A stretch of 32,000 nucleotides of DNA from Nostoc punctiforme PCC 73102 (GCF_000020025.1 NC_010628.1:3750001-3782000); one strand, 5' to 3'; shown: positions 1-32,000, counted from the first letter of the stretch. Notes: generated by a model not told the origin, from the sequence alone. Translations and numbers: made by a program.

Positions 1-43
1 AACTCAATACACCGTTATTTTTTTTACCAGTCCCTTATTTTGT

Positions 44-3000
44 TTAATTAATGTCTGCCAATATATCGTCAATATCTTCTTGACTTAACCCAGCTTTGGG
101 AAAGTCTGAAGGTGTAAATCCGCCAACATTGGGTAACTGGCAATGTTGAATTAAAGTTCGTAAAGCTTCCATAAACTGTCTAGCTAAACGCTCAACTGTA
201 CTGCGTTGATGAACTTTCTCGCTATACTCCCAATTTATTTGTAGTTCGCCATTCATTACCAATCCGCTTACCTGTAATAAATAATTGCGATATTCTTGGA
301 GACTATGTTCTGTTCCTCCAGATTCTTGAGCAAATTCCCAAGTAGCGATCGCTGATGATTCTCGGTTAAACTGCCCTAAGTAGTTGAAACTCACTTCTGC
401 TTTGGGCAAATGCTCTAGTTGCTCTGCATCTTGGCTCAGATAGCGTAAGACTCCATAACCAATACCTCGCATCGGCAAGCGGCGTAATTGCTCTTTGACT
501 AATTTCAGCGCCTCGCCTGGATTTGTCTCATCTCCTAATTTTAAGTGAACAGGGAACAAAGTTGTAAACCAGCCTACAGTCCGTGACAAATCCACGTCTT
601 CAAATAGTTCTTCTCGTCCATGTCCTTCAAGGTCAACTAATAAGGAGTCAGAACCAGTCCACTGGGTAAAGCTCTGCATTAAGGCGGTTAGCAGCACATC
701 ATTAATTTGGGTGTTGTAAACAGCAGGTACTTCCTGTAACAGTGTATCCGTCTCTTCACTACTCAAAGACAATGACACATAAGCAGATGAAGCTATGGTG
801 TTGGTTTCTTTGGTTGGGGGATAATCTACTGGTAAAGGAGTAATGTTTGTGGCTGATTCAGCTAACCAGTAGTTGATTTCGCTACTGAGTGCGGCTGATT
901 GAGCATATTTAGTAAGTTGTAAAGACCAATATTGAAAGGATGTAGTCTTAGGAGGTAATTGAATCACCTCAGCGCGAATCAACTGCTGGTAGCCAGTTTG
1001 CAAATCATCCAATAAAATTCGCCAAGAAACACCATCCACCGCCAAGTGATGAATCACCAGCAACAACCGACTCGGCTGATTATCACCAAGAGTAAATAAT
1101 ACTGCTCGCATCAACGGGCCAGTGGATAAACTCAGACTCGCTTGAAATTCACTACCAGCATTCTCCAAAGCAGCTGGTTGTTCCTGTGGCGAGAGAGTGG
1201 ATAAATCAACCACACTCAAAGCCACTGTTTCTTCAAAAGCCGCGTTAAATTGTTTCCAGATAACAGCATCCAGCACAAAGCGCAAGCGTAAAGCATCATG
1301 GTGTAGAAGTAACTGCTGCAAAACCCGTCTTAAAAGTTCCACGTCAAGGTCTGATGGAACTGATAGCAGCACTGATTGGTTGTAATGATGGGGTTGGGGC
1401 TGATTTTGAGCAAAGAACCAATGTTGAATCGGCGTTAACGGCACAATTCCTGTAACTAAATCTTGTTGAGCTTGGATTTTTTTAGTTGTGCCTACCACTT
1501 TTGCTAACTGAGCAATTGTCTGATGCTCAAACAACTGCTTAGGACTCAGTTGCAATCCGGCTTGATTTGCACGAGCAATAATTTGCAGACTAAGGATAGA
1601 ATCACCACCCAATTCAAAAAAGTTATCATGAATTCCTACCTGCTGCGATCGCAGAACCTCAGCCCAAATCAGTGCTAATTTTTGTTCAATAGATGTAGTC
1701 GCCGCTACAAAACTCACTTCTAGTTCCGAGCGCGACTCTGGTATAGGTAAGGCACGACGGTCGATTTTACCGTTGGGTGTCATAGGCAAAGCTGCCAAGA
1801 ACACAAAAGCCGCAGGTATCATATAATCAGGCAGCTTTGAGGTGAGGAATTGCCGCAGTTCTGTCACTGTGGGGGTTTGCTCTTGTTTAAGTACAAGATA
1901 AGCCACTAAGCGTTTGACACCAGGGTCATCTTCCCTAGCAATAACTACTGCTTGGAATACAGCCGGATTTTCGTTGAGAACAGTTTCTATCTCTCCCAAC
2001 TCAATACGGAAACCGCGAATTTTTACTTGGTTGTCTATCCGTCCCAAATACTCAATATTTCCATCAGGTAAATATCGCGCTAAATCCCCAGTTTTATACA
2101 AGCGCTCTGATTCTAATTTTGAATTTTGTACGACCTTGGCGTTCCCGTAGGGTATTTTGAATTTTGAATTGATAAATCTCTCTTGTGTTAAATCTGGACG
2201 ATTCAGATAGCCTTGTGCTAAACCAGCACCCCCAAGATGCAACTCTCCAGGCACACCAATTGGCACTGGTTGGAGATTTTGGTCGAGGATGTAAGCTTGG
2301 GTATTAGAAATCGGACGACCAATGGATGGTGCAACAGTCGCCCCTTGGGGAATCAATGCAAAGGTCGAGTAAGTTGTATCTTCCGAAGGACCATAAAGAT
2401 TGAAAACATATTTGACAGTTTCTTGTTGATAAATCTGTTGGACGAGTTGATTTTGTAGAGGTTCACCAGCCAAGTTAACTGTACTTACCCCAGCAGGTAT
2501 GCCATTAACGCGGATTAACTCACTAATTGCAGAAGGAACTGTGTTAATTAACGTCACCTGTTCAGCAGCAGGTAAAGTAGGTAGATGTAAGGCATTCTCA
2601 GCCAAGATAACTTTCCCACCCCAGGATAAAGGCACAAATAACTCGAAAACAGATAGGTCAAAACAAATAGAGGTAGAAGCCAAAACACCAGCAAGCTGTT
2701 GTGGGGTAAATACTTCTTTAGCCCAACTTATTAAAGCAACTGGGCTTTTGTGTTCGATAGCTACGCCTTTTGGTCTGCCTGTAGAGCCAGAAGTATAGAG
2801 GACATAAGCGAGGTTTGTCGGTTGAACAAAACTTTGCAAGTTGGTTGTGGGGAATTTTGCTAATTCTTGCCAATTTTCATCTAAGCAAACTACCTGTGCT
2901 TGATGTTCTGGAAGTTTGTCAACTAGTTGTTCTTGCGTTAGTAGTACCGAAAGCTGGGAATCTCTTAATGTGTAGCCTAGACGCTCTTGGGGATAATCTG

Positions 3001-6000
3001 GGTCAAGAGCGACATAAGCCCCACCTGCTTTGAGAATCCCCAATAGTCCCACCACCATTTCTAGGGAGCGTTTGACACAAATACCTACTAAAACATCTGG
3101 TTTGACTCCCAGACTTTGCAGATAATGTGCTAATTGATTGGCACGATGATTTAACTCGGTGTAGGTGAGTTGTTGGTTTTCAAATACTATTGCTACAGCA
3201 TCGGGGGTGCGTTTTACTTGGACTGCAAACAATTCATGAATGCAGAGATTTTGCGGGTAGTCTGTTTGTGTGGTATTCCATTCAATTAATAATTGCTGCT
3301 GCTCATCTGGTGTGAGTAAGGATAATTCCCGTAGCTGCTGATTTTGGTTGGTTACAAATCCTTCGAGCAAAGTCTGGAAGTGTCCCAGCATCCTGCTAAT
3401 TGTTGCTGCTTCAAAGCGACTTGTATCGTAACTCATCTTGACAGTTAATTCTTGACCGGGAATAGCTAACACTGTCAGAGGATAATTGGTTTGTTCCATA
3501 CCGCGAACACCAGAGACTTCCAGGCTGCCATTCTGTTCTTGCACAGAAGCATCAACTGGATAGTTCTCAAACACGACAAGGCTTTCAAACAATGACATTC
3601 CTCGCGGAATTTCACTCCAGTTCTGAATTTCTACTAGCGGCGTATATGAGTATTGCTCACACTCTACCTGCTGTGCTTGCAAATCCTTGAGCCAAGGTAA
3701 CAGTTCCTCGTTTTCAGAAATAATTACTCTCACTGGCAGGGTATTAATAAACAGTCCCACCATTGACTCCACACCCACAAGGGTTGGTGGACGACCGGAA
3801 ACAGTAGCACCAAATACCACATCTGCTTCCCCACTATAACGGGAAAGCAACACTGCCCATGCTCCCTGAACGAGGTTGTTTAGTGTTAATTGATGTCGCC
3901 TAGCGAAAGATTCAAGGGCATTTGTTACTGTTTGTGGTAAATAAATTTCTTGTTCACTGTAACTTGAGTGTTGCTCCTGGCCTATTAATGATTTATCCAC
4001 CATTAGAGAAGTTGGAGCAGTAAAGCCTTGGAGCTTTTGTTGCCAGTATATTTCTGCTTGCCCTAAGTCCTGTTTCTGTAACCAGGCGATGTAGTTTCTA
4101 TAAGGTGAACTAGGTTCGTGGCGTAAATTTTTGCCTTGACAAATGGCTTCATAATAATCGAAAACTTCTTTGAGAACCAAAGGTAAAGACCAACCATCGA
4201 GTAGTAGATGATGATAACTCCAAATGAATTGATATGCAGCTGCGTCTAATTGGATGAGATTTAGGCACATTAATGGGGCGAGTGAGAGTTTAAAGCTATG
4301 CTGTTGCTCAGATTTTAGGAAGATGTCTAGTTTCTCTTGCTGTTCGCTACTAGACAATGCACGCCAGTCATCAATTTCTAGAGGTAGTTTGACTTGACGG
4401 TAGACTAATTGCAAGGGCTGGTGATGATTTTCCCAAATGAACCCAGTGCGGAAAATTGAATGTCTATTAATTACTTGCTGCCAAGCTTGCTCAAAAGCTG
4501 GTATTTCTAGGTTGCCTTTTAATATACAACTCAACTGCTGAAAATAAACTCCTGACTCCGGCTCATACACACTGTGGAAAAGCATCCCCTGTTGCATCGG
4601 TGAGAGGGGATAAATATCTTCCAGATTTCGAGCGGTAGTTTTGCTCAATTGGGTATCAAGTTGTGCTTGAGTGAGTCTGGCTAGGGGAAAATCAGAAGGG
4701 GTGTAACCGCCAACCTCTGGAGATAAACAATGAGCTATGAGCGATCGCAATACTTCGATAAACTCTTGTGCTAGGTTTTTTATAGTGGCGTATTGATGAC
4801 TATTTTTGCTATAAGTCCAATCTATTTGCAATTGACCCTGGACGATGATGCCGTTGATGTCTAGCAGATGACTCCGCAAATTATTTAAACTTTGAACTGC
4901 ACCGAGAGACTCGGTAGTTAGTTGGAAATCAGCAGATTTACTCAAAGCTTGGTCAAATTGACCCAAATAGTTGAAGCTAATTTGTGCGGGTGGATATGTC
5001 TGCAAACAAGAGCTAATTTCCGCATCTTGTTGCAGATAACGTAGTATGCCATAGCCAATTCCTTTGTCTGGAATTTGCCGCAACTGCTCTTTAATTGACT
5101 TTAAGATATTCCCTAAATCTTCATTCACGCTTAATTCTAACAATACTGGGAAAATCGTTGTAAACCAACCAACAGTGCGTGATAAATCGACATCGGTAAA
5201 AATATCCTCCCGCCCATGACCTTCTAAATCAAGCAGCAAGTTGGAGCCAGTCCATTTGCCCAAAACCTGGACTAAAGCAGTCAGCAGAACATCATTAATC
5301 TGAGTATTGTAGGCTTTTGGTACTTCTTGTAACAATGCCTGGGTTTCTTCAGTAGTCAACGACACCGTCACTGTAGTAGCATCTGCAACAATGTTAGTAC
5401 CTTGTTCATAGTCTACAGGTATGGGCAGAACTTGTTTACGGGATGGATTAAGCCAATAAGTTAGTTCATCTTTGAGTGCGTCTGATTGTGCATACTCACT
5501 CAACTTTTGCGCCCAATATTTAAACGATGTTGTCTTAGACGGTAGTTGAATCGCCTCACCACTGCTAAGTTGGTGATAAGCATTTAACAAATCTTCTAAT
5601 AAAATCCGCCAGGATACACCATCTACCGCTAAGTGATGGATAATCATGAGCAATTTGCTAGGTTGACCATTACCAAATTGAAAGAGTACGGCTTGCAGCA
5701 ATGGCCCAGCAACAAGATTTAAGCTAGCTTGAAATTCATTGCCAGCATTCTCCAAAGCTTCTTTTTGCTCCTCTGACAGCATGGTTGACAAATCAACTAT
5801 GTTCAAAGGTACTGTTTTCTCAAAAGCAGCGTTAAACTGTTGCCAGCTTTTACCCTCTCGTACAAACCGCAGACGTAAGGCATCATGGTGTAGAAGTAAT
5901 TGCTGTAAAACACCCTTTAAAAGTTCTGGTTTTACGTCAAATGGGATTGATAGTAGCACCGATTGATTATAGTGATGCGGCTCATGCAGATTTTGCTCAA

Positions 6001-13891: not shown

Positions 13892-13902
13892 TGCTATTCC
13901 TA

Positions 13903-13907
13903 TCCTT
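13903..13907 (-). promoter_or_regulatory. Shine-Dalgarno-like AAGGA upstream of the trimodular NRPS start
   Basis: The minus-strand sense reads ...aataaaggataggaatagcaATG, with AAGGA 11 nt before the ATG (13889-13891). The 60-nt gap contains no obvious terminator hairpin, which suggests co-transcription. Confidence 0.35.
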
Positions 13908-13951
13908 TATTAATCTATTTCCAGCATCGTTTCATCAAGCTCAACTTAAAC

Positions 13952-22900: not shown

Positions 22901-25900
22901 TTGAATGCCTTGCTGAAGATGTTCATCTACCGCTGCGGTAATAAACGGTGCTGCATGACCAAAAAGCAGGACTCCAAATCCCATTGTGATATCTACATAT
23001 TCATTCCCATCTATGTCCCAACATCTCGCACCCTTGGCGCGTTCACCAATAATCGGGTATACCATTTCTTTGGTAGAAGGGCGAAATCCGGCGACAGCAC
23101 GACTATCAGCTAAAAATGAGCGATAAGTTTGTGCATACTGCTTTGATGATTGTGTTTTTTGAGTATAATTTGAAATCAGTGTTTTTAAGTGCTGCTGCTG
23201 TGGCTGATTGATTTCTCTTGGTGGTGGCGGTTCTATGGGAGAGAAATTTTTAGTAACGGTTTGATTAGATTGAACCTGATTGATAGCAATGCCTGTTTCT
23301 TTTACAACCTGATTTTGTGGTGTTGGTGGAGATGATGCTAGATGAGAATTACCATTCGATGACAGCACATTCCCTGTGGCACGCAAAACATCTAATTGCT
23401 GAGACATCACCTGAGACATCACTTGCAGTTGTTGCAGCATTATTCTTTCTACTGCTGTTTCACCTGCTGTTTGCTGAACAGTAGATTTTAATGTTGGTTG
23501 TTGAGTATGAGAATGACCATTACCATTGGACTCAACAAATGCCAAAGGAGGACTCTGTGGTGTTGGCGGTTGAGTTTGATATACAGGTTCAGGTAGTTGT
23601 ACATCGACAAAAATTGGCTCTGGAAGCAAATTCTGATCGATGTAGGACGCTACTGCATAGATAGTTGTCAATTGTTCAAACAATTGACTGATGGTAATCT
23701 TAATGCGATATGTGATGTCTATGTAATTTATGGCATCGATTAACATTAAGGAATCCGCTCCTATCTCTAAAAAAGGAGCATAAAAATCCACTTCCGAAGG
23801 TTCCGCTTTCAGTAAATTTACTATATAAGAATGTAATTTTGAAACAATCAGATCCAGCCTTTTGATTTGAGGAGTTGTATCAACTTTGGGCTGTAATGCC
23901 TTTAATGGTGGAGCTATTTCTGTATCAAATTGGCTAGTGCTTAATTGGGATGGCAGAGATTTTTGTGTGTCAAATTTATTATCTGATGTACTTACTGGTG
24001 CGTCAATCCAATAACGTTTACGCTGAAACGGGTAAGTTGGCAATTGCACACGACGACGGAAATAATCACGGTCAAAACCAGACCATTCTACCTGTACCCC
24101 ATGTACATATAGCTCTCCTAAACTTTCGAGTATTTGTTGCCAATCTTCGCGCCCTTGACGTAAACTAGCTAACCAAAGACCTTTACCTAGAAGGCATTTA
24201 CTCCCCATTCCCAATAAAATTGGTTTTGGGCCAATTTCCACAAAAATCTCATAATCTGCGGTGTGAAGCGTCTGTATACTCTTAGCAAACTGTACTGACG
24301 ATATTAAATGATCACACCAATATTCAGGATTAATCGCCTCACCGATCAGTTGTCCGGTAACGTTAGAGATGATATCAATTTGAGGAGCATTATAAGTCAC
24401 AGTGGCAGCAACTTGCCGGAATTCTGCCAGTATTGGCTCCATAAGTGGAGAGTGGAAACCGTAGGAGGTTACAAGCTTTTTCGTTTGAATTCCTGCGGCT
24501 TTTAAATTTGCACAGATTCGCTCAATTGCCTCCCGCTCTCCAGAAATCACAGTATTTTGTGGGCCGTTATAGGCTGCAATGCCTACAGATGGTTTCTCTT
24601 CGAGACGCGGCGCGAATGCCACTTCTGCCAGATCAATTTCTGTAATAGCCCAAATATCTGCCTCGCAAGCAAATACTGCCACCATCGCTCCTGTTTGTGG
24701 TAGGCTTTGCATCAAACGCGATCGCTCCGCAATCAGCTTCAATCCATCCTCTAGGCTGAAAACCCCTGCCACACAAGCGGCAACATATTCCCCAACACTA
24801 TGACCCATCACTACAGATGGTTCTACACCCCAGGATTTCCAAAGCTGTACCAAGGCATACTCTAGAGCGAATAGAGCAGGTTGGGCGTAAGCTGTCTGGT
24901 CTATGAGCGAGGTTTCTCCTGGTTGGGGATAGATAACTTTTAGCAGATCCTCTTTTAAGTAAGGACGCAAAATTTCATTGCAGTAGTCCAGAATTTTTCG
25001 GAAGGTAGGTTGCGTTTCGTAGAGTTGGCTTCCCATACCTACATATTGAGAACACTGCCCTGTAAACAAAAAGGCAATTTTTGGTGGCGTATTTTCGTGT
25101 ATTCGCCCGATTTTGATTCCTGTAACTTCTTGCTGACTAATAAAGTTAAGTAGCCGTTGATGCAGGTCAGATGTTGACGTAGCGATCGCACTTAACCGAT
25201 GCTGAAAATGTGAGCGTCCTGTATTCGCTGTAAAGCAGATATCTCCTAAAGGTAAATCTAAATTAGCGGCTAGATAAGTTTCATAACGACTTACTAACTG
25301 CACCAGAGCATTTTCTGTTTTCGCTGAGAAGGTGAGTAGATGTTTGGGACGCTCGATTTCTGGTATTACAGGTTCTAATGGTGGTGCTTCTTCAATCACA
25401 ATATGAGCGTTAGTGCCACCAATACCAAAAGAGCTAATTCCGGCTCTCCGCAAGCCTGATGATTCCCAAGAACATAACTTGGTATTGACTTGAAATGGTG
25501 TTTCTGCAAATGGAATCAGTGGATTAGGCTGCTGGAAATGCAAATTTGCAGGTATTTGACGGTGTTGAATAGCTAAAATAACTTTCAGGAGTTGGGCCAT
25601 GCCCGCAGCACATTCTAAATGCCCAATATTAGTTTTAACAGAGCCAATTTTACAAAACTGCTTGCGTTCTGTGTATTTGCGGAAAGCTTTCGTTAATCCC
25701 TCAACTTCAATTGGATCTCCCAAAGAAGTACCAGTTCCATGCGCCTCGACATAAGAAATCGTATCTGCGGAGATCCCTGCTGCATCCAAAGCCTGACAAA
25801 TTACCTCAGCATGAGAACGCGAATTCGGTGCTGTGATCCCATTAGTCCGACCATCATGATTGACAGCTGATCCTTTAATTACTGCATAAATGCGATCGCC

Positions 25901-28900
25901 ATCTTTTAAAGCCTGACTCAGAGGTTTTAACAATAATGCTCCCGCTCCTTCACCTAAGACGATACCATCAGCTTGGCTGTCAAAGGTTGCACAGCGTCCA
26001 TTTGGTGAGTGCATTTTCATCCGGCTCATGCCCACATAATATTCTGGAGACAAGAGCAGATTAACCCCTCCGGCTAAAGCTGTCGTACATTCACCTTGCT
26101 GTAGACTGCGACACGCCATGTGCAACGCTACCAGAGAGGAGGAACACATTGTATCAATTAAAACTGAAGGTCCACGAAGATTTAGTAAGAAAGAAACACG
26201 GTTAGCAATGATGGCATTCTGATTACCAATTCCGGCACTATAATCTGATGTATTCAGAGCAGGTGCAATGCGTTGGTAATAGCCATTATTACTACAGCCG
26301 ACAAAAACCCCCACCTGACTCTGAGCAAAGCTTTCCGGTGAGTAGCCAGCGTTTTCCAAAGCTTCCCAAGCTACTTCCAAGAATAGCCGTTGTTGCGGGT
26401 CCATTAACTCGGCTTCCCGTGGGGAGATTTGGAAGAAGAGAGGATCAAATTGATCGATATGATCGATAAATCCACCCCAACAGGAATAAGTTTTGTTAGC
26501 TGCACCAGGATTTTTGTCATACCAATCTGACAAATTCCAGCGCAAGCTAGGTACTTGAGCGATCGCATTTTTGCCTTGAGATAAGAGTTCCCAAAATGAC
26601 TGCAAATCTGGGGATTGCGGAAAGCGTCCAGACATCCCAATTACCGCAATATCTTCGGCACGGATGCGATCGTTAATTGGCTCAACTACTTTTGTGCTTG
26701 CAGGGTTAAATAACTTGTTAGATAAAACTACCGCTTTTTGTCGTTCTAAGTTAACAGCCCATAATTTAGCAGGTTCCCAGTTAACTAAGAGATATTTCTG
26801 TAACTGAGTTTTTTGCTCTTGAATCAGATATAAGGCAAATTCGGTTGGTGTAGGATATTCAAACAGTAGGGTGGGAGAGATAGAAAAGCCGAATTTTTCC
26901 CCTAAAGTTTCCATAATCTCTACAGCTTTAAGAGAATCTATACCAAAACTGTAAAAGCTTTTATCGAGGGAAATTTGGCTCGATTTTTTTCCTAAAGAGT
27001 TAGCAATTTGTTGGACTATGACTTCACCGATCCATTGTAGTAAAGAACCTTGGGGAACTTGCACCTCCTCATTTTGTCTAGAGGGTATTTTTAAACTAGT
27101 CTCAATGCTAAACGCTGGTAAAGAGTTATTGATAATTGCATTATTGGTTTGCTTAAGCACATCTGTTTTTGGTTGATTATAGCTTTCAATAGTTTCTTTG
27201 ATGCTGGGTTCATCTACACCGTTAACTAGTTGTCTGAGATTGTTTAAAGAGTCAAGACTGGCTAGAACTGTATTACCATCAATACCAAAGTCAATGAGAC
27301 AAGCAATTTCATCAACACCAATCTCATGCAAGCGCTGAACCATTTCTAAACAAGTGCTGGGTGTTCCAAATAAGGCACTTGTGTGGAAATATCTCTCAAA
27401 TGCATAAGCTAAGAGGTTCGCTTTTTCAGTTTCGGTCAACTTATCAAGATCGTCAGAACCGTGTCTCCACAAGTTCACAGAGCTTTTCATGTATTCTATA
27501 AAAGGTTCACGAACCTGATTGCGAACAACCTTAATGTCTTCACCAATAAAGGTATGCAACATCAGAGTTACTTGACCACTATCGGGATCGTAACCATGTT
27601 GCTTTCGAGTCTCTCGATAAAGGGCTATTTTTTGGGCTAATTCTTCAACAGGTTGAAAAAGAAGTGCCGTCAGGATGTTAAATCCAGATGCTCCAGCCTC
27701 AATAAATCTTTCTTTACCTCCAGTACAGGTGATCCATATAGACAATTCACGCTGCATAGGTAGGGGATAGACTTTAATATCTGTTTGTTTTCCAACACCA
27801 TTAGGAAGGGAAATATTTTCTCCGCGCCATAGTTTTTGTACAGTTTGGATACCTGAGAACATAACTTCTTTACTATCTGCATGGGTATCGGGCGATAGTA
27901 CAAAGTCGTTGGGGTTCCAACCTCTAGCAAAAGCTAAGTCTACTCTGCCATGAGATAAGTTATCAACAACAGACCATTCTTCAACGACTCGAATCGGGTT
28001 GTGCAATGGTAAGACAACACTACCAGCACGTAAGCGGATGCGCTTAGTTAAGGAGGTCAGGGCGGCACTTAAAACAGATGGATTGGGATATAGACCACCA
28101 AAGGCGTGAAAATGACGTTCTGGTGTCCAGACAGCAGTAAATCCATTGCGATCGGCAAACTTAGCCCCTTCAAGGAAAAGTTTATATTTTTCATCGCTAA
28201 ATTCAGCCTCGTTGCTAGAGAAATACAACAAGCTGAATTGCATCTTTTTGCTTTCTTTGGGATTTTGGAGTTGAGGCTCTATGACCACATCCACAGTATT
28301 TAAAGCATTTAAAGTTCCAGCTAAAAATCCCGCGCGACAAGCATGGCGCTGAATTTTACCACTAGAAGTTTTAGGAATACTTCCGGTTTTCAGCAACAAA
28401 ACTGCATAAACCTGTAGCTCATGGATTTGAGAGACTGATGTCTTGATAGCTTCAACTACCTCATCTAGGTTGAGATGCCGTAAATAAGTTCGTTCTACTT
28501 CCTGAACAATTACCAATTGTTCTTCGCCATCAATGTCAACACTAAAAGCTGCACCGGAACCTGCTTTTAGTGCCTGATGGCTTTGTTCTACTGTCAGTTC
28601 AATATCTTGAGGATAATGGTTGCATCCTCGAATAATCACAACATCCTTGAGTCGTCCAGTGATAAACAACTGACCATCTTTTAAAAATCCTAAATCTCCT
28701 GTGCGTAAGAAAGGCCCTTCCGCCGTATCTGCTAAATAGGCATGAAAAGTTTCCTTTGTTTGCTCTGGTCGATTCCAGTAACCCTTGGCGATACTTGATC
28801 CCGATACCCAAATCTCTCCTACTTGTTCGGGAGCGCACAAAGTTAACGATTGAGGATTGGCGATCGCAATTTTTGTATCGAGCCACGCATAGCCACACCC

Positions 28901-30010
28901 TACTAAATGCTTAACCTTTGGAGTATCTTCACTCACCTGGATAATTTGATTTTTTTCTAATGCCTTTGGATCAACTACACAGTAAACTGGCTCATCTGCA
29001 ACACCTCCACCAGAAATCATTAGCGTTGCTTCAGCCATCCCATAACAAGGATAGAAAAATTTAGCTTGGAAACCAGAAGATTTAAATGTTGCGGCAAACT
29101 TTTCCAAAGTTTCTCGACGCACAGGTTCAGCACCACTATAGGCGCTGCACCAACTACTCAAATCCAGGTTGGCTCGTTGTTCTGGAGTAATCTTACTCAC
29201 ACAAAGTTCATAGCCAAAGTTCGGGCCACCACAATGAGTTGCTTTGTAATCAGAAATAGCCTTCAGCCAACGAATCGGTTGCTGAACAAAGGATGCTGGT
29301 GACATCATGACACTCGGAAAACCTGTATACAGAGGTTGCAAAACCCCATCAATTAGCCCCATATCATGGAAGCTTGGCAACCAGGTTACAGACACACTAT
29401 TTGGTGTGAGTTCAAAGGCTGACTTGATATACTCCGAATTTTGCAACAAATTACCATGAGTAACGATCACACCCTTCGGCGTTCCTGTAGAACCCGAAGT
29501 GTATTGCAGAAAAGCCAACGTGCTTTTCTCCAGTGGTGGCTTTTGCCAATTAGAAGCATCACTAACAATCTTGTCAATGGCTATGCAATGCAAAGCTGTT
29601 AATTCTGGTTCTTGAGCAAAGCCTTGTTGAATATTAGTCAAGACGGATGCTGTAGTGAGGGCAAACCTTGCTTCTGAGTCTTTGACAATAGCTTGCAGTC
29701 TCGTCATGCGTTGGTTGCGTCGGGGTGGATATACGGGAACAGCTAAAACCCCAGCGTATAAACATCCGAAAAAAGCCACAATAAATTCTAATCCTGATGG
29801 ATAAAGCAGCAAAGCTCTTTCGCCTGGTGCAGCTTTTAAGCTCTGGAGTTCTACCGCAATAGCTCGTGCTTTTTGGTCTAACTCTTGATAAGTTAGTTTG
29901 ACTTCTTCGGTATCTCCATCCACCAAGAAAGTATAAGCGATTTGGTTTGGTTGGGATAAAGACCGATAAGATAATAAATCAACAAAAGTGGCACAGTTTA
30001 GAGAAGTCAT
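13952..30010 (-). CDS. Hybrid fatty-acyl-AMP ligase / PKS / aminotransferase / NRPS megasynthase (FAAL-LLM-ACP-KS-AT-ACP-AMT-C-A-PCP-C-A-PCP-E), 5352 aa
   Basis: Uninterrupted 16 kb ORF. Core motifs read from the translation: FAAL YTSGSTGTPKGV; LLM block MQFSLLYFSS...; ACP FGIDSL; KS DTMCSSS, HGTGT, NIGH; AT GHSVGE; ACP GADSL; class-III aminotransferase TYGKIVGG; two C domains MHHIVSDGWS; two A domains (YTSGSTG.PKG, LYKTGD, NGK); PCP GGHSL and GGDSI; E domain HHLIVDGVSW plus EGHGRE. Confidence 0.95.
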   Translation of the reverse strand: MTSLNCATFVDLLSYRSLSQPNQIAYTFLVDGDTEEVKLTYQELDQKARAIAVELQSLKAAPGERALLLYPSGLEFIVAFFGCLYAGVLAVPVYPPRRNQRMTRLQAIVKDSEARFALTTASVLTNIQQGFAQEPELTALHCIAIDKIVSDASNWQKPPLEKSTLAFLQYTSGSTGTPKGVIVTHGNLLQNSEYIKSAFELTPNSVSVTWLPSFHDMGLIDGVLQPLYTGFPSVMMSPASFVQQPIRWLKAISDYKATHCGGPNFGYELCVSKITPEQRANLDLSSWCSAYSGAEPVRRETLEKFAATFKSSGFQAKFFYPCYGMAEATLMISGGGVADEPVYCVVDPKALEKNQIIQVSEDTPKVKHLVGCGYAWLDTKIAIANPQSLTLCAPEQVGEIWVSGSSIAKGYWNRPEQTKETFHAYLADTAEGPFLRTGDLGFLKDGQLFITGRLKDVVIIRGCNHYPQDIELTVEQSHQALKAGSGAAFSVDIDGEEQLVIVQEVERTYLRHLNLDEVVEAIKTSVSQIHELQVYAVLLLKTGSIPKTSSGKIQRHACRAGFLAGTLNALNTVDVVIEPQLQNPKESKKMQFSLLYFSSNEAEFSDEKYKLFLEGAKFADRNGFTAVWTPERHFHAFGGLYPNPSVLSAALTSLTKRIRLRAGSVVLPLHNPIRVVEEWSVVDNLSHGRVDLAFARGWNPNDFVLSPDTHADSKEVMFSGIQTVQKLWRGENISLPNGVGKQTDIKVYPLPMQRELSIWITCTGGKERFIEAGASGFNILTALLFQPVEELAQKIALYRETRKQHGYDPDSGQVTLMLHTFIGEDIKVVRNQVREPFIEYMKSSVNLWRHGSDDLDKLTETEKANLLAYAFERYFHTSALFGTPSTCLEMVQRLHEIGVDEIACLIDFGIDGNTVLASLDSLNNLRQLVNGVDEPSIKETIESYNQPKTDVLKQTNNAIINNSLPAFSIETSLKIPSRQNEEVQVPQGSLLQWIGEVIVQQIANSLGKKSSQISLDKSFYSFGIDSLKAVEIMETLGEKFGFSISPTLLFEYPTPTEFALYLIQEQKTQLQKYLLVNWEPAKLWAVNLERQKAVVLSNKLFNPASTKVVEPINDRIRAEDIAVIGMSGRFPQSPDLQSFWELLSQGKNAIAQVPSLRWNLSDWYDKNPGAANKTYSCWGGFIDHIDQFDPLFFQISPREAELMDPQQRLFLEVAWEALENAGYSPESFAQSQVGVFVGCSNNGYYQRIAPALNTSDYSAGIGNQNAIIANRVSFLLNLRGPSVLIDTMCSSSLVALHMACRSLQQGECTTALAGGVNLLLSPEYYVGMSRMKMHSPNGRCATFDSQADGIVLGEGAGALLLKPLSQALKDGDRIYAVIKGSAVNHDGRTNGITAPNSRSHAEVICQALDAAGISADTISYVEAHGTGTSLGDPIEVEGLTKAFRKYTERKQFCKIGSVKTNIGHLECAAGMAQLLKVILAIQHRQIPANLHFQQPNPLIPFAETPFQVNTKLCSWESSGLRRAGISSFGIGGTNAHIVIEEAPPLEPVIPEIERPKHLLTFSAKTENALVQLVSRYETYLAANLDLPLGDICFTANTGRSHFQHRLSAIATSTSDLHQRLLNFISQQEVTGIKIGRIHENTPPKIAFLFTGQCSQYVGMGSQLYETQPTFRKILDYCNEILRPYLKEDLLKVIYPQPGETSLIDQTAYAQPALFALEYALVQLWKSWGVEPSVVMGHSVGEYVAACVAGVFSLEDGLKLIAERSRLMQSLPQTGAMVAVFACEADIWAITEIDLAEVAFAPRLEEKPSVGIAAYNGPQNTVISGEREAIERICANLKAAGIQTKKLVTSYGFHSPLMEPILAEFRQVAATVTYNAPQIDIISNVTGQLIGEAINPEYWCDHLISSVQFAKSIQTLHTADYEIFVEIGPKPILLGMGSKCLLGKGLWLASLRQGREDWQQILESLGELYVHGVQVEWSGFDRDYFRRRVQLPTYPFQRKRYWIDAPVSTSDNKFDTQKSLPSQLSTSQFDTEIAPPLKALQPKVDTTPQIKRLDLIVSKLHSYIVNLLKAEPSEVDFYAPFLEIGADSLMLIDAINYIDITYRIKITISQLFEQLTTIYAVASYIDQNLLPEPIFVDVQLPEPVYQTQPPTPQSPPLAFVESNGNGHSHTQQPTLKSTVQQTAGETAVERIMLQQLQVMSQVMSQQLDVLRATGNVLSSNGNSHLASSPPTPQNQVVKETGIAINQVQSNQTVTKNFSPIEPPPPREINQPQQQHLKTLISNYTQKTQSSKQYAQTYRSFLADSRAVAGFRPSTKEMVYPIIGERAKGARCWDIDGNEYVDITMGFGVLLFGHAAPFITAAVDEHLQQGIQIGPQANYAGEVAALISELTGMERVTFCNSGTEAVMTALRLARTKTGRSKIAIFAGSYHGHFDGILAKESLDGLSTVPIAPGITANAVEDVLVLDYGEPKSLEILQAHAAELAAVLVEPVQGRNPDLQPREFLQQLRQFTAVAGVALIFDEVLVGFRIHLGGAQAWFGIEADIVTYGKIVGGSIPIGVVAGKASYMNGIDGGLWNYGDASYPQVEKTFFAGTFNKNHLGMAVARAVLKYLKSQGPALQQHLNQRTSDLAIALNTYFEQEEVPIKIVYFGSLFRFAFSGNFDLLFYHLIYKGVYIWEGRNCFLSTAHTDEDIEYVIQAVKHSIEEMRAVGFIPKRSPKLSAGSNGNGTVKTTQNGVLTKPVVTESVPVLEAIAREGKLPLSLAQQRLWFLDQLEPNSAFYNIPAAVRLQGQLNVAILEQSFREIIRRHEALRTNFITLDGQPHQVIHPNLNWQISVVDLQHLPVSKRENESQKIAIAEAQRPFNLETESLVRATLLVLSQTEYILQVTMHHIVSDGWSMSILIEEFTALYTAFSQGQPTPLVELPIQYVDFAVWQRKWLQGTVLQSQLTYWKKQLSGAATILSLPTDRPRPTMQTVRGAHQPFALSFELTEALKALSKKEGVTLFMTVLAAYNILLYRYTGQADILVGSPNASRNRPEIQGLIGYFLNILLLRADMSGNPSLREFLKQVRKTALGAYAHQDVPVEELIEALQPVRDLSYTPLFQVMFILDSATPISEMQLPGVTWSSMTVENYTSKLDLTLTLENTAQGLVGEWEYNTDLFEAATITRMAEHFRNLLEGMVANPEQRIAELPLLAAWERQQLLVEWNNTQREYPHKCIHQLFEEQVELTPNAVAVVFGNQRLTYQELNSRANQLAHYLQELEIKPDTLIGICLERSLDIFVGILGILKTGAAYVPLDPDYPQERLDYMFSDSQVSILLTAKKLVTQIPRHSAQLVYLDADWDVIATKSQQNLASEVKPENLAYVIYTSGSTGRPKGVMVPHRSLVNAYFGWEQAYELRTKTSSHLQMANFSFDVFTGDLVRGLCSGAKLVLCPREWLLTPELLYKLMQEEKVDCAEFVPAVIRNLIAYLEKTKQNLDFMRVLAVGSDSWYVKEYEEFQRFCGLETRLINSYGVSEATIDSCYFESTNVKLPVEALVPIGKPFPNVQIYILDSDLQPVPIGVLGELYIGGAGLAHGYLNRPDLTQERFIANPLSNEPTSRLYKTGDLARFLADGNIEFLGRIDNQVKIRGFRIELAEIEAVLRQYPTVSQTVAMAREDIPGDKRLIAYVVGNQESVPVISDLRRFLKEKLPEYMIPAAFMVLQTIPLTPNGKVNYRELPAPEISRAGLEASFIAPRNPIEEILAQIWVDVLGVKQVGIHDNFFELGGHSLIATQLISRIRTALKVELPLRSLFEASTVADLAERIALQQDAPHLNAPSLQSVVRDGQLSLSFAQQRLWFLNQLEPNSALYNIAGTARLQGELNVIALEQSLGEIIRRHESLRTNFITQEDGQAVQIIRPDAAFTMPVVDLRQLSASEQEIEIQRLATVEAQQAFDLANQLLIRATLLVLSKTEHILLFCMHHIVSDGWSMGVFVQETAAIYGAFSQGQPTPLPELAIQYVDFAVWQRQLLQGEIKESQLAYWQQHLAGATALLELPTDRPRPAVQTFRGANQSFVLSFELTGSLILLSRQEGVTLFMMLLAAYDTLLYRYTGQTDILVGSAIANRNHNEIEGLIGFFVNTLVFRTDVAGNPSFRELLNRVREVALGAYSHQDLPFELLVETLQPERNLSYTPLFQVAFVLQNAPMSEIELPGLTLSSMTPDNKTAKFDLTLTLENTATGLMGVWEYNTDLFEASTIERMTGHFQTLLESVVIQPEQRIGELPLLTAKEQYQLLEEWNHTQKDYLGNICIHQFFEMQVERTPDAVALVFENQQLTYRELNQQANHLAHYLRTLGIRVDVLVGLCVERSLEMLVGLLGILKAGGAYVPIDPEYPQERISHILSDSQVSLLLTQHRLVARLPEHQATLVVIDESWEQIIQHSQENPISGVKDSDLVNVIYTSGSTGKPKGVMVKHSGLCNLAQAQIDLFDLLPSSRILQFASFSFDASIWEVVMALGSGARLYLGTKESLLPGLELIELLRDYGITHITLPPSALAVLPQAELPALQNIIVAGEACAPDLIKQWSVGRRFFNAYGPTETTVCATVAECGNGERSDKPPIGRPIPNTQAYILDSYLQPVPIGVPGELHIGGAGVAQGYLNRPELTTEKFILNPFEDSAALASPRASAEGSRLYKTGDLARYLPDGNIEYLGRIDNQVKVRGFRIELGEIEVILSQHPAALQVAVIAREDVPGDKRLVAYLVLNQEEAPTVNDLRQFLKQKLPNYMMPSAFVFLETLPITPNGKVDRRALPTPDLRCELEVSFVAPTTSIEETLGKIWADVLRVEQVGIHDNFFDLGGDSILSLQIIARANLAGLQLIPKQLFAHQTIAELAAVVGTTKKIQAEQGLVTGALLLTPIQEWFFEQNLPEPHHFNQSILLLVPPDVQSELLEQVLQKLLLHHDALRLRFIPDGGDWQQVNDGLEAKVPLNVIDLSTIPAEEQSVALENSGSALQASLNLSTGPLMRVALFKFSNNQPYRLLVILHHLIVDGVSWRILLEDLFSAYQQLSRGEMMALPPKTSSFKDWGHRLREYARSLALTSELNYWMQPNFNFTSLPTDYPVSKDANNIAATAQVSRSLSLEETSALLQEVPAAYNTQINDVLLTALLQSFAQWTGSSSLLIDIEGHGREELFDDLDLSRTVGWFTSLFPVRLQLEQTNHPGNILKSVKEQLRQLPNRGIGYGILRYLSPYAEQLKALPQAEVSFNYLGQLGQKSSAADTWKLAQESGGVEHNSLENRNYLLDINVLTINGKLQINWTYSQKIHQLKTVECLADWFMNALKTLINHCQSPDVGGYTSSDFPEVSLSQEEIDNLNLMFAFDPS
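14036..15373 (-). other. Domain: epimerization E (aa ~4880-5325), followed by a short docking-type tail
   Basis: LTPIQEWFFEQNLPEPHHFNQS, HHLIVDGVSWRILL (His pair aa 5015-5016), IDIEGHGREELF. The protein ends ...SLSQEEIDNLNLMFAFDPS. Confidence 0.85.
15401..15613 (-). other. Domain: PCP (aa ~4800-4870), Ser4832; the type that feeds an E domain
   Basis: DNFFDLGGDSILSLQIIARAN; the Ser codon is at 15515-15517. Confidence 0.85.
15665..17158 (-). other. Domain: adenylation A (aa ~4285-4782), predicted Phe (code DAWTIAAVCK)
   Basis: FDASIWE, ITHITLPPS, IIVAGEA, NAYGPTETTVCAT, PNGKVDR (Lys4776). The code differs from GrsA-Phe DAWTIAAICK only by I to V at position 330. Confidence 0.8.
16022..16069 (-). 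repeat. Expanded, locally GC-rich loop (EDSAALASPRASAEGS) in the Phe A domain, consistent with an in-frame insertion of about 30 nt
   Basis: The equivalent loop is 6 aa in two uninserted A domains (NPLSNEPTSRLYKTGD and HPFNDDPNARLYKTGD) but 16 aa here. The core tgccgatgctcgcgggctcgctaacgctgc (16031-16060) is visibly more GC-rich than its surroundings. Confidence 0.55.
17249..18538 (-). other. Domain: condensation C (LCL-type; aa ~3825-4254)
   Basis: LSFAQQRLWFLNQLEPNSALYN; CMHHIVSDGWS (His pair aa 3958-3959). Confidence 0.85.
18596..18808 (-). other. Domain: PCP (aa ~3735-3805), Ser3766; the type that feeds a C domain
   Basis: DNFFELGGHSLIATQL; the Ser codon is at 18713-18715. Confidence 0.85.
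18866..20368 (-). other. Domain: adenylation A (aa ~3215-3715), divergent; hand-derived code DVGELVSIDK, closest to the ornithine code
   Basis: AYVIYTSGSTGRPKGV, FSFDVFTGD, AEFVPAV, LAVGSDS, NSYGVSEATIDS, LYKTGD, PNGKVNY (Lys3709 at 18884-18886). The code was derived by manual alignment to GrsA-Phe numbering. Confidence 0.7.
20456..21742 (-). other. Domain: condensation C (LCL-type; aa ~2757-3185)
   Basis: LSLAQQRLWFLDQLEPNSAFYN; MHHIVSDGWS (HHxxxDG at 21329-21349). Confidence 0.85.
21878..23203 (-). other. Domain: PLP-dependent class-III aminotransferase AMT (aa ~2270-2711), putative PLP Lys2547
   Basis: LADSRAVAGFRP, GFGVLLFGH, FCNSGTEAVMTALRLAR, FDEVLVGFR, IVTYGKIVGG (Lys codon 22370-22372). 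It resembles the glutamate-1-semialdehyde-aminomutase-like domains of MycA/ItuA-type synthases. Confidence 0.85.
23399..23422 (-). repeat. Perfect 12-nt tandem duplication (ctgagacatcac x2) giving QVMSQVMS in the pre-aminotransferase helix/linker
   Basis: Read directly: 23399-23410 equals 23411-23422. It is in frame. Confidence 0.9.
23636..23863 (-). other. Domain: ACP2 (aa ~2050-2125), Ser2087
   Basis: FLEIGADSLMLIDAINYI; the Ser codon is at 23750-23752. Confidence 0.85.
24191..25078 (-). other. Domain: acyltransferase AT (aa 1645-1940), probably malonyl-specific but with atypical motifs
   Basis: FLFTGQCSQY (usual motif is GQGSQ), QTAYAQPALFALEYAL, GHSVGE (Ser1738 at 24797-24799), YGFHS at aa 1850-1854 (usual motif is HAFH for malonyl or YASH for methylmalonyl). 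Confidence 0.8.
25382..26656 (-). other. Domain: ketosynthase KS (aa 1119-1543), active-site Cys1289
   Basis: EDIAVIGMSGRFP start; DTMCSSS (Cys codon 26144-26146); EAHGTGT; KTNIGHLECAAG; GGTNAHIVIEE end. Confidence 0.9.
26816..27043 (-). other. Domain: ACP1 (aa ~990-1065), phosphopantetheine Ser1026
   Basis: FYSFGIDSLKAVEIM; the Ser codon is at 26933-26935. Confidence 0.85.
27224..28243 (-). other. Domain: luciferase-like (FMN-dependent) monooxygenase, LLM/Ox, embedded between FAAL and ACP (aa 590-929)
   Basis: 340-aa block MQFSLLYFSSNE...ADRNGFTAVWTPERHFHAFGGLYPNPSVL...GRVDLAFARGWNPNDF...EIGVDEIACLIDFG. It has the shape of the natural-product-biosynthesis LLM domain family. Coordinates were mapped from codons. 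Confidence 0.75.
28286..30010 (-). other. Domain: fatty acyl-AMP ligase (FAAL) loading domain (aa 1-575)
   Basis: N-terminus FVDLLSYRS...IAYTFL, then LQYTSGSTGTPKGVIVTHGNLL, YGMAEATL, FLRTGDLGF and IPKTSSGKIQR. This is the typical FAAL pattern rather than an amino-acid A domain. Confidence 0.85.
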
Positions 30011-31874: not shown

Positions 31875-32000
31875 TTCATCGAACTGCCATATAATTGGGA
31901 AGATATTGAGGAGTATGGGATCAATAAAAAAGAATGGTTGCAAACATTTTTAGAACTACCAGCAGTATTCGCCAAAAATAACGACGGCAGCTATGAACGA
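31875..32000 (+). pseudogene. Probable decayed fragment of an ISAs1-family (H-repeat-type) transposase gene
   Basis: The frame starting just after a TAA at 31872-31874 reads FIELPYNWEDIEEYGINKKEWLQTFLELPAVFAKNNDGSYER. The segment NWEDIEEYG..K.EWL..FLELP matches the conserved N-terminal region of ISAs1 transposases (..WEDIE.FG..K..WL..FL.LPNGIPSHDT). There is no start codon, an in-frame stop lies immediately upstream, and the sequence diverges after FLELP, so it looks like a relic. It runs off the window edge. Confidence 0.3.

What the first reader, a model, noticed from the sequence alone, without database searches (positions are those of the whole stretch)
1..30010. Beta-amino-fatty-acid lipopeptide assembly line (FAAL-PKS-aminotransferase-NRPS) with no product I can assign, cut off by the window edge
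The domain string is colinear. FAAL activates a fatty acid. One KS-AT-ACP module with no KR, DH or ER leaves a beta-keto group. The fused PLP aminotransferase should convert that to a beta-amine, as in mycosubtilin/iturin MycA/ItuA and the cyanobacterial puwainaphycin and laxaphycin-type pathways. Five NRPS modules follow. Hand-derived codes give Orn-like, D-Phe, D-Thr, D-Leu, D-Ala. I cannot match that order after a beta-amino acid to the iturin, puwainaphycin/minutissamide, laxaphycin or anabaenolysin sequences I remember. That comparison is memory only, so this is a candidate orphan cluster rather than a demonstrated novelty. Both giant ORFs are intact, which argues for a functional pathway.
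Basis: partly seen in the sequence, partly recalled or inferred. Interest (0 to 1): 0.7.

Follow-up and report, generated by a model that had tools for sequence, protein, structure and literature searches.

The report
Orphan lipopeptide synthetase of Nostoc punctiforme
The window holds the intact first two genes of a roughly 64-kb, five-gene assembly line in the model cyanobacterium Nostoc punctiforme PCC 73102 that should make a large fatty-acid-tailed peptide; the type of machinery is well known, but no paper I could search names its product.

Summary
Two intact minus-strand ORFs (13952-30010, 5352 aa; 44-13891, 4615 aa) encode FAAL-LLM-ACP-KS-AT-ACP-aminotransferase, then five NRPS modules. 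The specificity codes are Orn/Dab-like, Phe, Thr, Leu-like and Ala, and modules 2-5 carry epimerases.

Exact protein look-ups show the window is Nostoc punctiforme PCC 73102 (ORF2 = ACC81528.1). ORF2 is complete; only the cluster is cut. In a 96-98% identical genome the line continues with:
- a 3-module NRPS (Thr, Phe, Ile/Val-like);
- a KS-AT-KR-ACP PKS;
- a ~4458-aa NRPS (basic residue, Thr, a third module), which ends in a thioesterase in a 78%-identical colinear homolog.

A MacAB-type exporter lies upstream.

The aminotransferase is 57% identical to the solved MycA domain. The monooxygenase is ~55% identical to the solved PuwE domain, but it sits between FAAL and ACP1 and belongs to a separate clade.

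Predicted product: a cationic, D-rich lipo-undecapeptide with a hydroxylated beta-amino fatty acid and a statine-type unit.

Apart from a 96-98% identical sister genome, the best relatives are ~80% (mosaic, Nostoc sp. MG11) and then 56% or less. I found no matching compound in the searchable literature.

Verdict: a real, functional-looking orphan cluster and a new member of a known kind. Interest is moderate to low.

The parts
13952..30010 (-). ORF1 (5352 aa; ACC81529 by position in N. punctiforme PCC 73102): FAAL-LLM-ACP-KS-AT-ACP-AMT-C-A-PCP-C-A-PCP-E
28304..29953 (-). [quoted passage not shown]
   Evidence: Pfam AMP-binding plus DIP2-like C-terminal domain. NCBIfam fatty-acid--AMP ligase models score 395-468 bits.
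27233..28237 (-). FMN-dependent luciferase-like monooxygenase domain (TIGR04020, MupA/Atu3671 family), ORF1 aa 592-926
   Evidence: 523.8 bits against a cut-off of 244. Best PDB hit is the PuwE oxygenase domain 6KET, 431 bits, ~55% identity. dN/dS 0.05.
26825..27022 (-). ACP1 (loading carrier), aa 997-1062, DSL serine present
   Evidence: sequence
25232..26656 (-). Ketosynthase, aa 1119-1593; Cys (DTMCSSS), HGTGT and NIGHLE present
24197..25072 (-). Acyltransferase, aa 1647-1938. GHSVG serine is intact, and so is the final His of YGFH (the catalytic His by my recalled FabD numbering). Phe at position 200 suggests malonyl. It has the unusual motif GQCSQ in place of GQGSQ.
23639..23839 (-). ACP2, aa 2058-2124
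21875..23203 (-). PLP-dependent class-III aminotransferase domain, aa 2270-2712
   Evidence: Pfam Aminotran_3. 56.6% identical to the solved MycA aminotransferase domain 6KFM.
18605..21748 (-). NRPS module 1: C(LCL)-A-PCP, aa 2755-3802; code DVGELVSIDK (Orn/Dab-like); no E domain
13991..18541 (-). NRPS module 2: C(LCL)-A-PCP-E, aa 3824-5340; code DAWTIAAVCK (Phe, epimerised)
44..13891 (-). ORF2 (4615 aa = ACC81528.1 / WP_012409515.1): three C(DCL)-A-PCP-E modules; complete, stop codon at 44-46
9272..13864 (-). NRPS module 3: C(DCL)-A-PCP-E; code DFWNIGMVHK (Thr, epimerised)
4667..9235 (-). NRPS module 4: C(DCL)-A-PCP-E; code DAWSLGNVVK (Leu-like, uncertain; epimerised)
47..4624 (-). NRPS module 5: C(DCL)-A-PCP-E; code DLFNNALTYK (Ala, epimerised). 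The C-terminal tail ...LSQEDIDDILADIN is probably a docking end.
30458..31378 (-). DUF3102 protein (306 aa, ACC81530.1) between the exporter genes and ORF1. It is probably not part of the pathway, because it is not conserved next to the MG11 homolog.

Best explanation
The window is the upstream half of a roughly 64-kb hybrid PKS/NRPS cluster of Nostoc punctiforme PCC 73102.

Shown by sequence:
- ORF1 has a FAAL domain, a TIGR04020 flavin monooxygenase domain, ACP1, a KS-AT-ACP module with no reducing domains, a MycA-type aminotransferase and two NRPS modules.
- ORF2 has three more NRPS modules. Modules 2-5 each end in an epimerase.

Inferred mechanism:
1. FAAL adenylates a free fatty acid and loads it on ACP1.
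2. KS/AT add one malonate to give a beta-ketoacyl-ACP2.
3. The aminotransferase converts this to a beta-aminoacyl thioester, as shown biochemically for MycA.
4. The monooxygenase adds a hydroxyl alpha to a thioester. This is either C2 of the extended chain, as proposed for PuwE and microginin, or the starter on ACP1, which would become C4.
5. C1 joins the lipid carboxyl to an Orn/Dab-like residue, followed by D-Phe, D-allo-Thr, a D-Leu-like residue and D-Ala.

Outside the window, read from a 96-98% identical genome and from the strain's own ACC81527 and ACC81526 proteins, the chain continues:
- Thr. The next C domain is atypical (HHAILDG) and may dehydrate it.
- Phe.
- Ile/Val-like.
- A KS-AT-KR-ACP module, which would give a statine-type gamma-amino-beta-hydroxy unit.
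- A D-basic residue (code DVEDIGAVEK).
- D-allo-Thr.
- An eleventh residue.
- Probably a thioesterase for release, most likely with cyclisation.

A MacAB-type tripartite exporter encoded divergently upstream probably exports the product.
For: - ORFs, domains and motifs.
- Specificity codes.
- Source and gene identities by exact look-up: ACC81528.1, ACC81530-33; ACC81527.1; ACC81526.1.
- Downstream genes.
- TE end and the following MFS transporter in a colinear homolog that is 78.5% identical over the 3283 readable residues of ORF5 (P0383, AP018207).
- AMT is 56.6% identical to the solved MycA AMT.
- LLM belongs to TIGR04020 and is ~55% identical to the solved PuwE domain.
- Purifying selection on every ORF1 domain (omega 0.05-0.18).
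- The exporter is conserved next to the MG11 homolog.
- The role of AMT plus oxygenase in making 3-amino-2-hydroxy acids is proposed in PMC4219810, PMC9594780 and PMC13252402.
Against: - No product is known, and nothing here shows expression.
- The specificities of M1 (8 of 10 matches to the Orn code), M4 (DAWSLGNVVK) and M9 are uncertain. The reference codes come from my memory.
- The AT domain has Cys in place of a Gly that is invariant in 134 of 134 homologs (GQCSQ).
- The site of hydroxylation is unresolved.
- The last ~1170 residues of ORF5 were not read. The TE is inferred from protein length and from a colinear homolog that is 78.5% identical over the readable part of ORF5.
- The downstream genes were read from a sister genome, not from the window's own record, except for the protein sequences of ORF3 and ORF4.
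Confidence: 0.8

Rival explanations
1. The cluster is silent or decaying, a genomic relic that no longer makes a product.
For: No product has been reported, although N. punctiforme PCC 73102 is an intensively mined model strain. It had 16 orphan BGCs as of 2022 (PMC9324945). The AT domain carries GQCSQ where 134 of 134 homologs have GQGSQ, and YGFH where most have HAFH.
Against: About 30 kb of reading frame has no stop codon. All catalytic motifs checked are intact, including the AT Ser and the final His of the YGFH motif. dN/dS is 0.05-0.18 for every ORF1 domain against MG11. The whole five-gene line is conserved at 96-98% nucleotide identity in a second genome.
Confidence: 0.1
2. The product is a linear lipopeptide with a free beta-amine, like the microginin protease inhibitors, and not a macrocycle. 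In this reading the statine-type unit is a protease-inhibitor warhead.
For: Microginins use the same FAAL / PKS / AMT / LLM logic and stay linear (PMC9594780). The KS-AT-KR module after an Ile/Val-like module would give a statine-like residue, which is a classic aspartic-protease pharmacophore (my knowledge).
Against: Eleven residues with six epimerised ones, two or three cationic residues and a dedicated MacAB exporter look more like a membrane-active lipopeptide. In the iturin, puwainaphycin and laxaphycin families the beta-amine closes the ring (my knowledge; PMC4219810). The type of TE cannot be read from the data I hold.
Confidence: 0.25
3. The product is a lipidic siderophore whose Orn-like residues are N-hydroxylated or acylated for iron binding.
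For: There are Orn-like codes in M1 and, in the colinear homolog P0383, in M11. The exporter is adjacent.
Against: In the stretches I could read there is no ornithine N-monooxygenase, N-acyl/formyl transferase, TonB-dependent receptor or siderophore-binding protein gene. These stretches are 6 kb upstream, the whole line, and the region after the TE in the AP018207 relative. The hydrophobic D-residue stretch is atypical for siderophores.
Confidence: 0.05

Closest known systems
Mycosubtilin/iturin initiation (MycA/ItuA, Bacillus)
   Same: One protein carries an N-terminal FAAL, an ACP, a KS, an ACP and a class-III aminotransferase, followed directly by C-A-PCP. The AMT domain is 56.6% identical to the solved MycA AMT (6KFM). 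The logic is the same: fatty acid, then beta-keto, then beta-amino, then peptide.
   Different: Here the AT is in cis, whereas MycA uses a trans AT (my knowledge). This protein has an extra LLM domain. The first residue is Orn/Dab-like, not Asn. There are at least 11 modules plus a second PKS module instead of a heptapeptide. The host is a cyanobacterium.
Puwainaphycin/minutissamide synthetase (PuwC/D/B/E...; PMC4219810)
   Same: It is a cyanobacterial FAAL-primed line with KS-AT-ACP, an aminotransferase, an LLM-type oxygenase and NRPS modules. The window's LLM is ~55% identical to the solved PuwE oxygenase domain (6KET).
   Different: In puw, FAAL and ACP are separate proteins, a reducing/methylating PKS (PuwB) comes first, and the oxygenase follows the aminotransferase. 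Here FAAL-LLM-ACP are fused and the LLM precedes the KS. The LLM also falls in a different sequence clade: 47-60% identity between classes against 56-93% within a class. The peptide codes differ (Val comes first in puw).
Microginin (mic) and ralsolamycin (RmyA) pathways
   Same: They use FAAL plus PKS plus aminotransferase plus luciferase-like monooxygenase to build a 3-amino-2-hydroxy fatty acid head group (PMC9594780, PMC4989320).
   Different: The position of the LLM, the peptide length and composition, and the organisms all differ. Sequences were not compared here because they were not available to the tools.
Uncharacterised relatives: Nostoc sp. MG11 (JACXXN01 contigs 56 and 50) and AP018207.1 (GCA_002367995.1)
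   Same: MG11 has the same FAAL-LLM-ACP-KS-AT-ACP-AMT-C start at 80% identity and the same MFP/MacB exporter upstream. AP018207 has a colinear NRPS / KS-AT-KR-ACP PKS / NRPS-TE end at 78.5% identity.
   Different: MG11 is mosaic. Its modules are 65-80% identical but arranged in another order: Orn+E, Ala+E, Leu-like without E, and so on. Neither relative has a known product.

Membership tests
FAAL-PKS-aminotransferase-primed beta-amino-fatty-acid lipopeptide synthetases (MycA type) | N-terminal fatty acyl-AMP ligase domain followed by a carrier domain | tested here: met
   Pfam AMP-binding plus DIP2-like C-terminal domain, then PP-binding. NCBIfam FAAL models score 395-468 bits.
FAAL-PKS-aminotransferase-primed beta-amino-fatty-acid lipopeptide synthetases (MycA type) | One condensing KS module without KR, DH or ER | tested here: met
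   KS with Cys/His/His, AT and ACP; no reductive domains between AT and ACP2.
FAAL-PKS-aminotransferase-primed beta-amino-fatty-acid lipopeptide synthetases (MycA type) | Embedded class-III PLP aminotransferase homologous to the MycA AMT, directly upstream of C-A-PCP | tested here: met
   6KFM 'Mycosubtilin synthase subunit A', E 2e-167, 56.6% identity over 447 aa. A C domain follows.
FAAL-PKS-aminotransferase-primed beta-amino-fatty-acid lipopeptide synthetases (MycA type) | The product contains a beta-amino fatty acid | not testable with these tools
   Needs isolation, or in vitro assay of the AMT domain.
Iturin family proper | Seven NRPS modules beginning Asn-Tyr-Asn, spread over three genes and ending in a TE | tested here: not met
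   The M1 code is DVGELVSIDK and M2 is Phe. There are at least 11 modules plus a second PKS module over five genes.
Puwainaphycin/minutissamide (puw) cluster | Stand-alone FAAL and ACP, a reducing C-methylating PKS, then KS-AT-ACP-AMT-Ox-C-A(Val) | tested here: not met
   FAAL-LLM-ACP is fused to the KS. There is no cMT, DH, ER or KR in ORF1. The LLM precedes the KS. The first residue is Orn-like. The architecture of puw is taken from PMC4219810.
TIGR04020 MupA/Atu3671 FMN-dependent luciferase-like monooxygenase domains | Full-length match above the curated cut-off | tested here: met
   523.8 bits against a cut-off of 244.45, covering profile positions 1-341 of 341.
Post-aminotransferase LLM class (PuwE-like, AMT-LLM-C order) | The LLM is placed after the AMT and clusters with PuwE in sequence | tested here: not met
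   The LLM lies between FAAL and ACP1. It is 49-55% identical to six post-AMT LLMs including PuwE, and 66-93% identical to other N-terminal LLMs.
Laxaphycin/scytocyclamide (lxa) cluster | Stand-alone FAAL plus a shared PKS feeding two separate NRPS lines; no hydroxylase | not tested
   Compared only from the paper title and abstract (PMC7524897) and from memory. No sequences were available. No hit above 56% identity to ORF1 was named after it.

The most novel reading that the evidence does not exclude
The fused FAAL-LLM-ACP loading tri-domain may be a distinct, uncharacterised device that hydroxylates the fatty-acyl starter on ACP1 before chain extension. After one malonate and transamination, this would give a 3-amino-4-hydroxy fatty acid. 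Sister enzymes with a KR in place of the AMT would give a 3,4-dihydroxy acid. This differs from the 3-amino-2-hydroxy head group made by the PuwE- and microginin-type AMT-LLM pair. On this reading the five-gene line makes a 13-unit cationic, D-rich lipopeptide that combines a beta-amino fatty acid with a statine-type unit. I could not find that combination described for cyanobacteria. The support is that the N-terminal LLMs form their own clade and travel with the loading module whatever the beta-processing domain is.
Probability: 0.25. Interest if true: 0.5.

Novelty: new member of a known kind. Interest (0 to 1): 0.3.

Why it matters
N. punctiforme PCC 73102 is a genetically tractable plant-symbiotic model strain whose orphan clusters are being worked through one at a time. 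A concrete module-by-module prediction gives a mass and fragment target for LC-MS mining and for knock-out or activation experiments. The prediction is a hydroxylated beta-amino lipid, an Orn/Dab-like residue, D-Phe, D-aThr, a D-Leu-like residue, D-Ala, Thr/Dhb, Phe, an Ile/Val-derived statine-type unit, a D-basic residue, D-aThr and an eleventh residue.

The FAAL-LLM-ACP fusion recurs in at least a dozen of the 120 best database homologs, from cyanobacteria, Chloroflexota and metagenomes. I could not find it described in two recent FAAL reviews. Settling where this LLM hydroxylates would therefore inform many clusters.

Beyond that, this is one more orphan NRPS/PKS cluster of a familiar type.

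Tried and rejected
1. I first read the AT motif YGFH as loss of the catalytic His. By my recalled FabD numbering (H198-A199-F200-H201) the catalytic His is the last one, and it is intact in the window and in 134 of 134 homologs. I rejected the idea of an inactive AT. Only the GQGSQ-to-GQCSQ change remains unexplained.

2. I tried to use Nostoc sp. MG11 to extrapolate the missing downstream genes. MG11 turned out to be mosaic, with shared modules in a different order, so it is not a valid proxy.

3. An exact-DNA scan and a protein-pattern scan of metagenome contigs found nothing closer than 58%. A scan of one genome per species found nothing closer than 77%. The strain's own record appears to be hidden from those tools.

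4. Three long NRPS queries to the search for homologous proteins timed out or were badly framed. One search returned only proteins shorter than about 1.75 times the query length, so it missed the target.

5. The look-up of encoding contigs does not return the NCBI PCC 73102 record. I walked downstream through a JGI sister genome, using protein ids obtained from the listing of cluster members. The last ~1170 aa of ORF5 could not be reached. I inferred the end from P0383.

6. Ten literature searches found no paper on this cluster, no FAAL-LLM-ACP loading module and no compound with a matching sequence. Dehm et al. 2019 (PubMed 31091070) is not held, and PMC9324945 has no held supplements.

7. 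Rfam, tandem-repeat and promoter/terminator scans of the window showed nothing notable.

Full report
**What is in the window.** The ORF listing finds only three ORFs of 150 aa or more, all on the minus strand:
- 13952-30010 (5352 aa)
- 44-13891 (4615 aa)
- 30458-31378 (306 aa)

GC is 40-45% across the two giant ORFs and falls to 32-37% upstream of ORF1. No Rfam family, notable tandem repeat or significant promoter/terminator excess was found.

**Domain anatomy.** Pfam scans of ORF1 pieces give FAAL (AMP-binding plus a DIP2-like C-terminal domain), Bac_luciferase, PP-binding, KS N and C, AT, PP-binding and Aminotran_3, followed by C-A-PCP-C-A-PCP and a third Condensation-fold domain. ORF2 has six Condensation-fold, three A and three PCP domains.

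Motif scans separate C domains from E domains:
- C1 and C2 carry the LCL signature (SxAQQRLW, HHIVSDG).
- C3-C5 carry the DCL signature (LSPMQQG, HHLLxDGWS), as expected after E domains.
- The four E domains have HHxxxDGxSW, EGHGRE, TVGWFT, GIGYG and FNYLG.

The KS has Cys/His/His. Both ACPs and all five PCPs have the serine motif. All A domains have the core motifs A3, A5, A7, A8 and A10.

**Specificity codes.** I aligned each A domain to GrsA-PheA. I wrote the reference sequence from memory, and its numbering reproduces the published code DAWTIAAICK. The results are:

| Module | Code | Reading |
|---|---|---|
| M1 | DVGELVSIDK | Orn/Dab-like |
| M2 | DAWTIAAVCK | Phe |
| M3 | DFWNIGMVHK | Thr |
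| M4 | DAWSLGNVVK | Leu-like |
| M5 | DLFNNALTYK | Ala |

A second multiple alignment shifted M1 positions 299 and 301. Hand anchoring on the GS of VLAVGSDS supports L and V at those positions. Assignments rest on codes I know from memory: Orn DVGEIGSIDK, Dab DVGEISSIDK, Leu DAWFLGNVVK. M1 and M4 are therefore only Orn/Dab-like and Leu-like. Modules 2-5 end in E domains, so D-Phe, D-allo-Thr, a D-Leu-like residue and D-Ala are expected.

**Where the window comes from.**
- The DUF3102 protein occurs on Logan contigs that are 100% identical to the window. These extend 4.4 kb past position 32000 into an MFP (486 aa), a MacB-type permease (405 aa) and an ABC ATPase (252 aa) on the opposite strand.
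- Exact-sequence look-ups identify all of these proteins, and ORF2, as Nostoc punctiforme PCC 73102 / ATCC 29133 proteins. ORF2 is ACC81528.1 (WP_012409515.1), the DUF3102 protein is ACC81530.1, and the exporter genes are ACC81531-33.
- The locus is thus part of a genome that has been public for many years. A 2022 study counted 16 orphan BGCs in this strain (PMC9324945). One of them, pks3/ngl, was solved in 2024 (PMC10849952).
- I found no paper that treats the present cluster. The library lacks most subscription papers, so this is absence of evidence only.

**The rest of the assembly line.** ORF2 ends with an E domain and a stop codon at 44-46, so the line must continue. A JGI genome that is 96-98% identical in nucleotide sequence is readable. 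The following genes lie there:

1. **ORF3** starts ~35 nt after the window's edge (3259 aa). It is 97% identical to PCC 73102 ACC81527.1.
   - M6: C(DCL)-A(DFWNIGMVHK, Thr)-PCP.
   - M7: an atypical C domain (HHAILDG, LTMLQMGMLFHS) with A(DAWTIAAVCK, Phe)-PCP.
   - M8: C(LCL)-A(DAFFLGVTFK, Ile/Val-like)-PCP.
2. **ORF4** (1538 aa, in the same 90%-identity cluster as ACC81526.1) is KS-AT(HAFH)-KR-ACP. After an Ile/Val-like residue this would make a statine-type unit.
3. **ORF5** (~4458 aa) has M9 C(LCL)-A(DVEDIGAVEK, probably basic)-PCP-E and M10 C(DCL)-A(Thr)-PCP-E, followed by the start of M11.

A colinear homolog that is 78.5% identical over the 3283 readable residues of ORF5 (P0383, AP018207.1, 4440 aa) ends C-A(DVGELLSIDK)-PCP-TE. 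It is followed by an MFS transporter and then unrelated genes. By length and colinearity, ORF5 very probably ends in a TE too. This last step is inference.

**Relatives.**
- For the FAAL-to-AMT part, the best hit among 5.8 billion proteins is Nostoc sp. MG11 at 80%. The next is a Chamaesiphon protein at 56%.
- For ORF3, the next hit after the species itself is 52%.
- For the last E domain, genome and metagenome scans give 77% (MG11) and then 61% or less.
- MG11 shares the exporter upstream, but it is mosaic. Its modules match window modules at 65-80% in a different order and with different E-domain content.
- No hit carries the name of a characterised pathway.

**How the starter is built.** The aminotransferase is 56.6% identical over 447 residues to the solved MycA aminotransferase domain (6KFM, 561 bits). 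This is strong support for beta-keto to beta-amino conversion.

The LLM is a full-length TIGR04020 MupA/Atu3671-family domain (523.8 bits). Its best solved relative is the PuwE oxygenase domain (6KET, 431 bits, ~55% identity). [quoted passage not shown]

Here the order differs. Mapping domains on the best 120 homologs shows three classes of LLM placement:
- N-terminal FAAL-LLM-ACP
- post-AMT (AMT-LLM-C)
- embedded in an A domain

An identity matrix separates the first two classes: 63-93% within the N-terminal class, 56-76% within the post-AMT class (which includes PuwE), and 47-56% between them.

The N-terminal LLM also occurs with a KR in place of the AMT (P0003, LLM 88% identical to the window's). 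A close relative lacks both the LLM and the AMT through clean in-frame deletions (P0007).

The LLM therefore travels with the loading module. Whether it hydroxylates acyl-ACP1, which would give a 4-hydroxyl after extension, or reaches ACP2, which would give a 2-hydroxyl, cannot be decided from sequence.

**Is the line functional?** dN/dS against MG11 is 0.05 for LLM and KS, 0.09-0.11 for the ACPs and AMT, 0.14-0.18 for C1, AT and FAAL, and below 0.4 even for linkers. The only oddity is in the AT: GQCSQ where 134 of 134 homologs have GQGSQ, and YGFH where most have HAFH. The catalytic Ser is intact, and so is the final His of YGFH, which is the catalytic His by my recalled FabD numbering. My first reading of YGFH as a lost catalytic His was wrong, and I withdrew it.

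**Verdict.** The object is the first 30 kb of a five-gene, roughly 64-kb FAAL-PKS-AMT-NRPS-PKS-NRPS line. It has its own MacAB-type exporter, sits in a model Nostoc, and has no product that I could find. It is a new (uncharacterised) member of a known kind.

Its modest points of interest are:
- the FAAL-LLM-ACP loading architecture, which two recent FAAL reviews do not mention;
- the predicted combination of a beta-amino fatty acid with a statine-type unit;
- six D-residues and two or three cationic residues.

A specialist would not be surprised by such a cluster in Nostoc. Interest: 0.3.

Noticed in passing
window about 24990-25000 (ORF1 aa ~1672) and about 24450-24460 (aa ~1851-1854): The AT domain has GQCSQ where all 134 aligned homologs have GQGSQ. 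It has YGFH where most have HAFH (115 of 134 have His at the first position). The catalytic Ser and the final His are intact. The effect on activity or extender choice is unknown.
   Followed up: partly
ORF1 aa 592-926 (window 27233-28237) compared with homologs P0001-P0120: LLM domains in FAAL-primed megasynthases fall into two sequence clades that match their position: N-terminal FAAL-LLM-ACP, or post-aminotransferase like PuwE. The N-terminal type also pairs with a KR in place of the AMT (P0003, P0062).
   Followed up: partly
P0007 (aff. Roholtiella sp. LEGE 12411) compared with ORF1 aa 581-981 and 2320-2751: A relative that is 68-91% identical domain by domain lacks both the LLM and the aminotransferase through clean in-frame deletions.
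   Followed up: no
ORF2 aa ~2375-2392 and ~3910-3930 (window about 6715-6770 and 2100-2165); ORF2 aa ~2445: There are short in-frame inserts in the A domains. FKIPYGNAK(G/V)VQNSK lies between A6 and A7 of modules 4 and 5, and TCTERSRS lies after A8 of module 4. A longer TCTELSRSSTAEVSRS insert occupies the same place in module 6, outside the window. These look like small repeat-derived insertions.
   Followed up: no
window 8739-13180 and 15531-17220 compared with L105/L103: The line contains internal paralogs. Module 10 (in ORF5, outside the window) is 88% nucleotide-identical over 4.5 kb to module 3. The module 7 A domain is 91% identical to the module 2 A domain. This suggests recent duplication or gene conversion, and it probably explains why short-read assemblies break here.
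   Followed up: partly
L001 353-3825 (just beyond window position 32000) and L081 4946-7638: A split MacAB-type exporter (ATPase 252 aa, permease 405 aa, MFP 486 aa) is encoded divergently from the synthetase. The MFP and permease genes are conserved next to the MG11 homolog.
   Followed up: partly
window 30458-31378: A DUF3102 protein (ACC81530.1) lies between the exporter and ORF1. It has no NCBIfam match and is replaced by an unrelated 356-aa ORF in MG11.
   Followed up: partly
L103 about 27470-28570 (ORF3 module 7 C domain, outside the window): An atypical C domain (HHAILDG; N-terminal LTMLQMGMLFHS) follows a Thr module whose PCP is of the GGDSI type. It may be a dehydrating C domain of the modified-amino-acid type that makes Dhb. 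The Pfam match is only partial.
   Followed up: no
L111 (AP018207.1, 8328912-8362234): A third related cluster ends NRPS / KS-AT-KR-ACP / NRPS-TE, followed by an MFS transporter, then a transposase and nitrogenase-like genes. This marks a likely downstream cluster boundary.
   Followed up: partly
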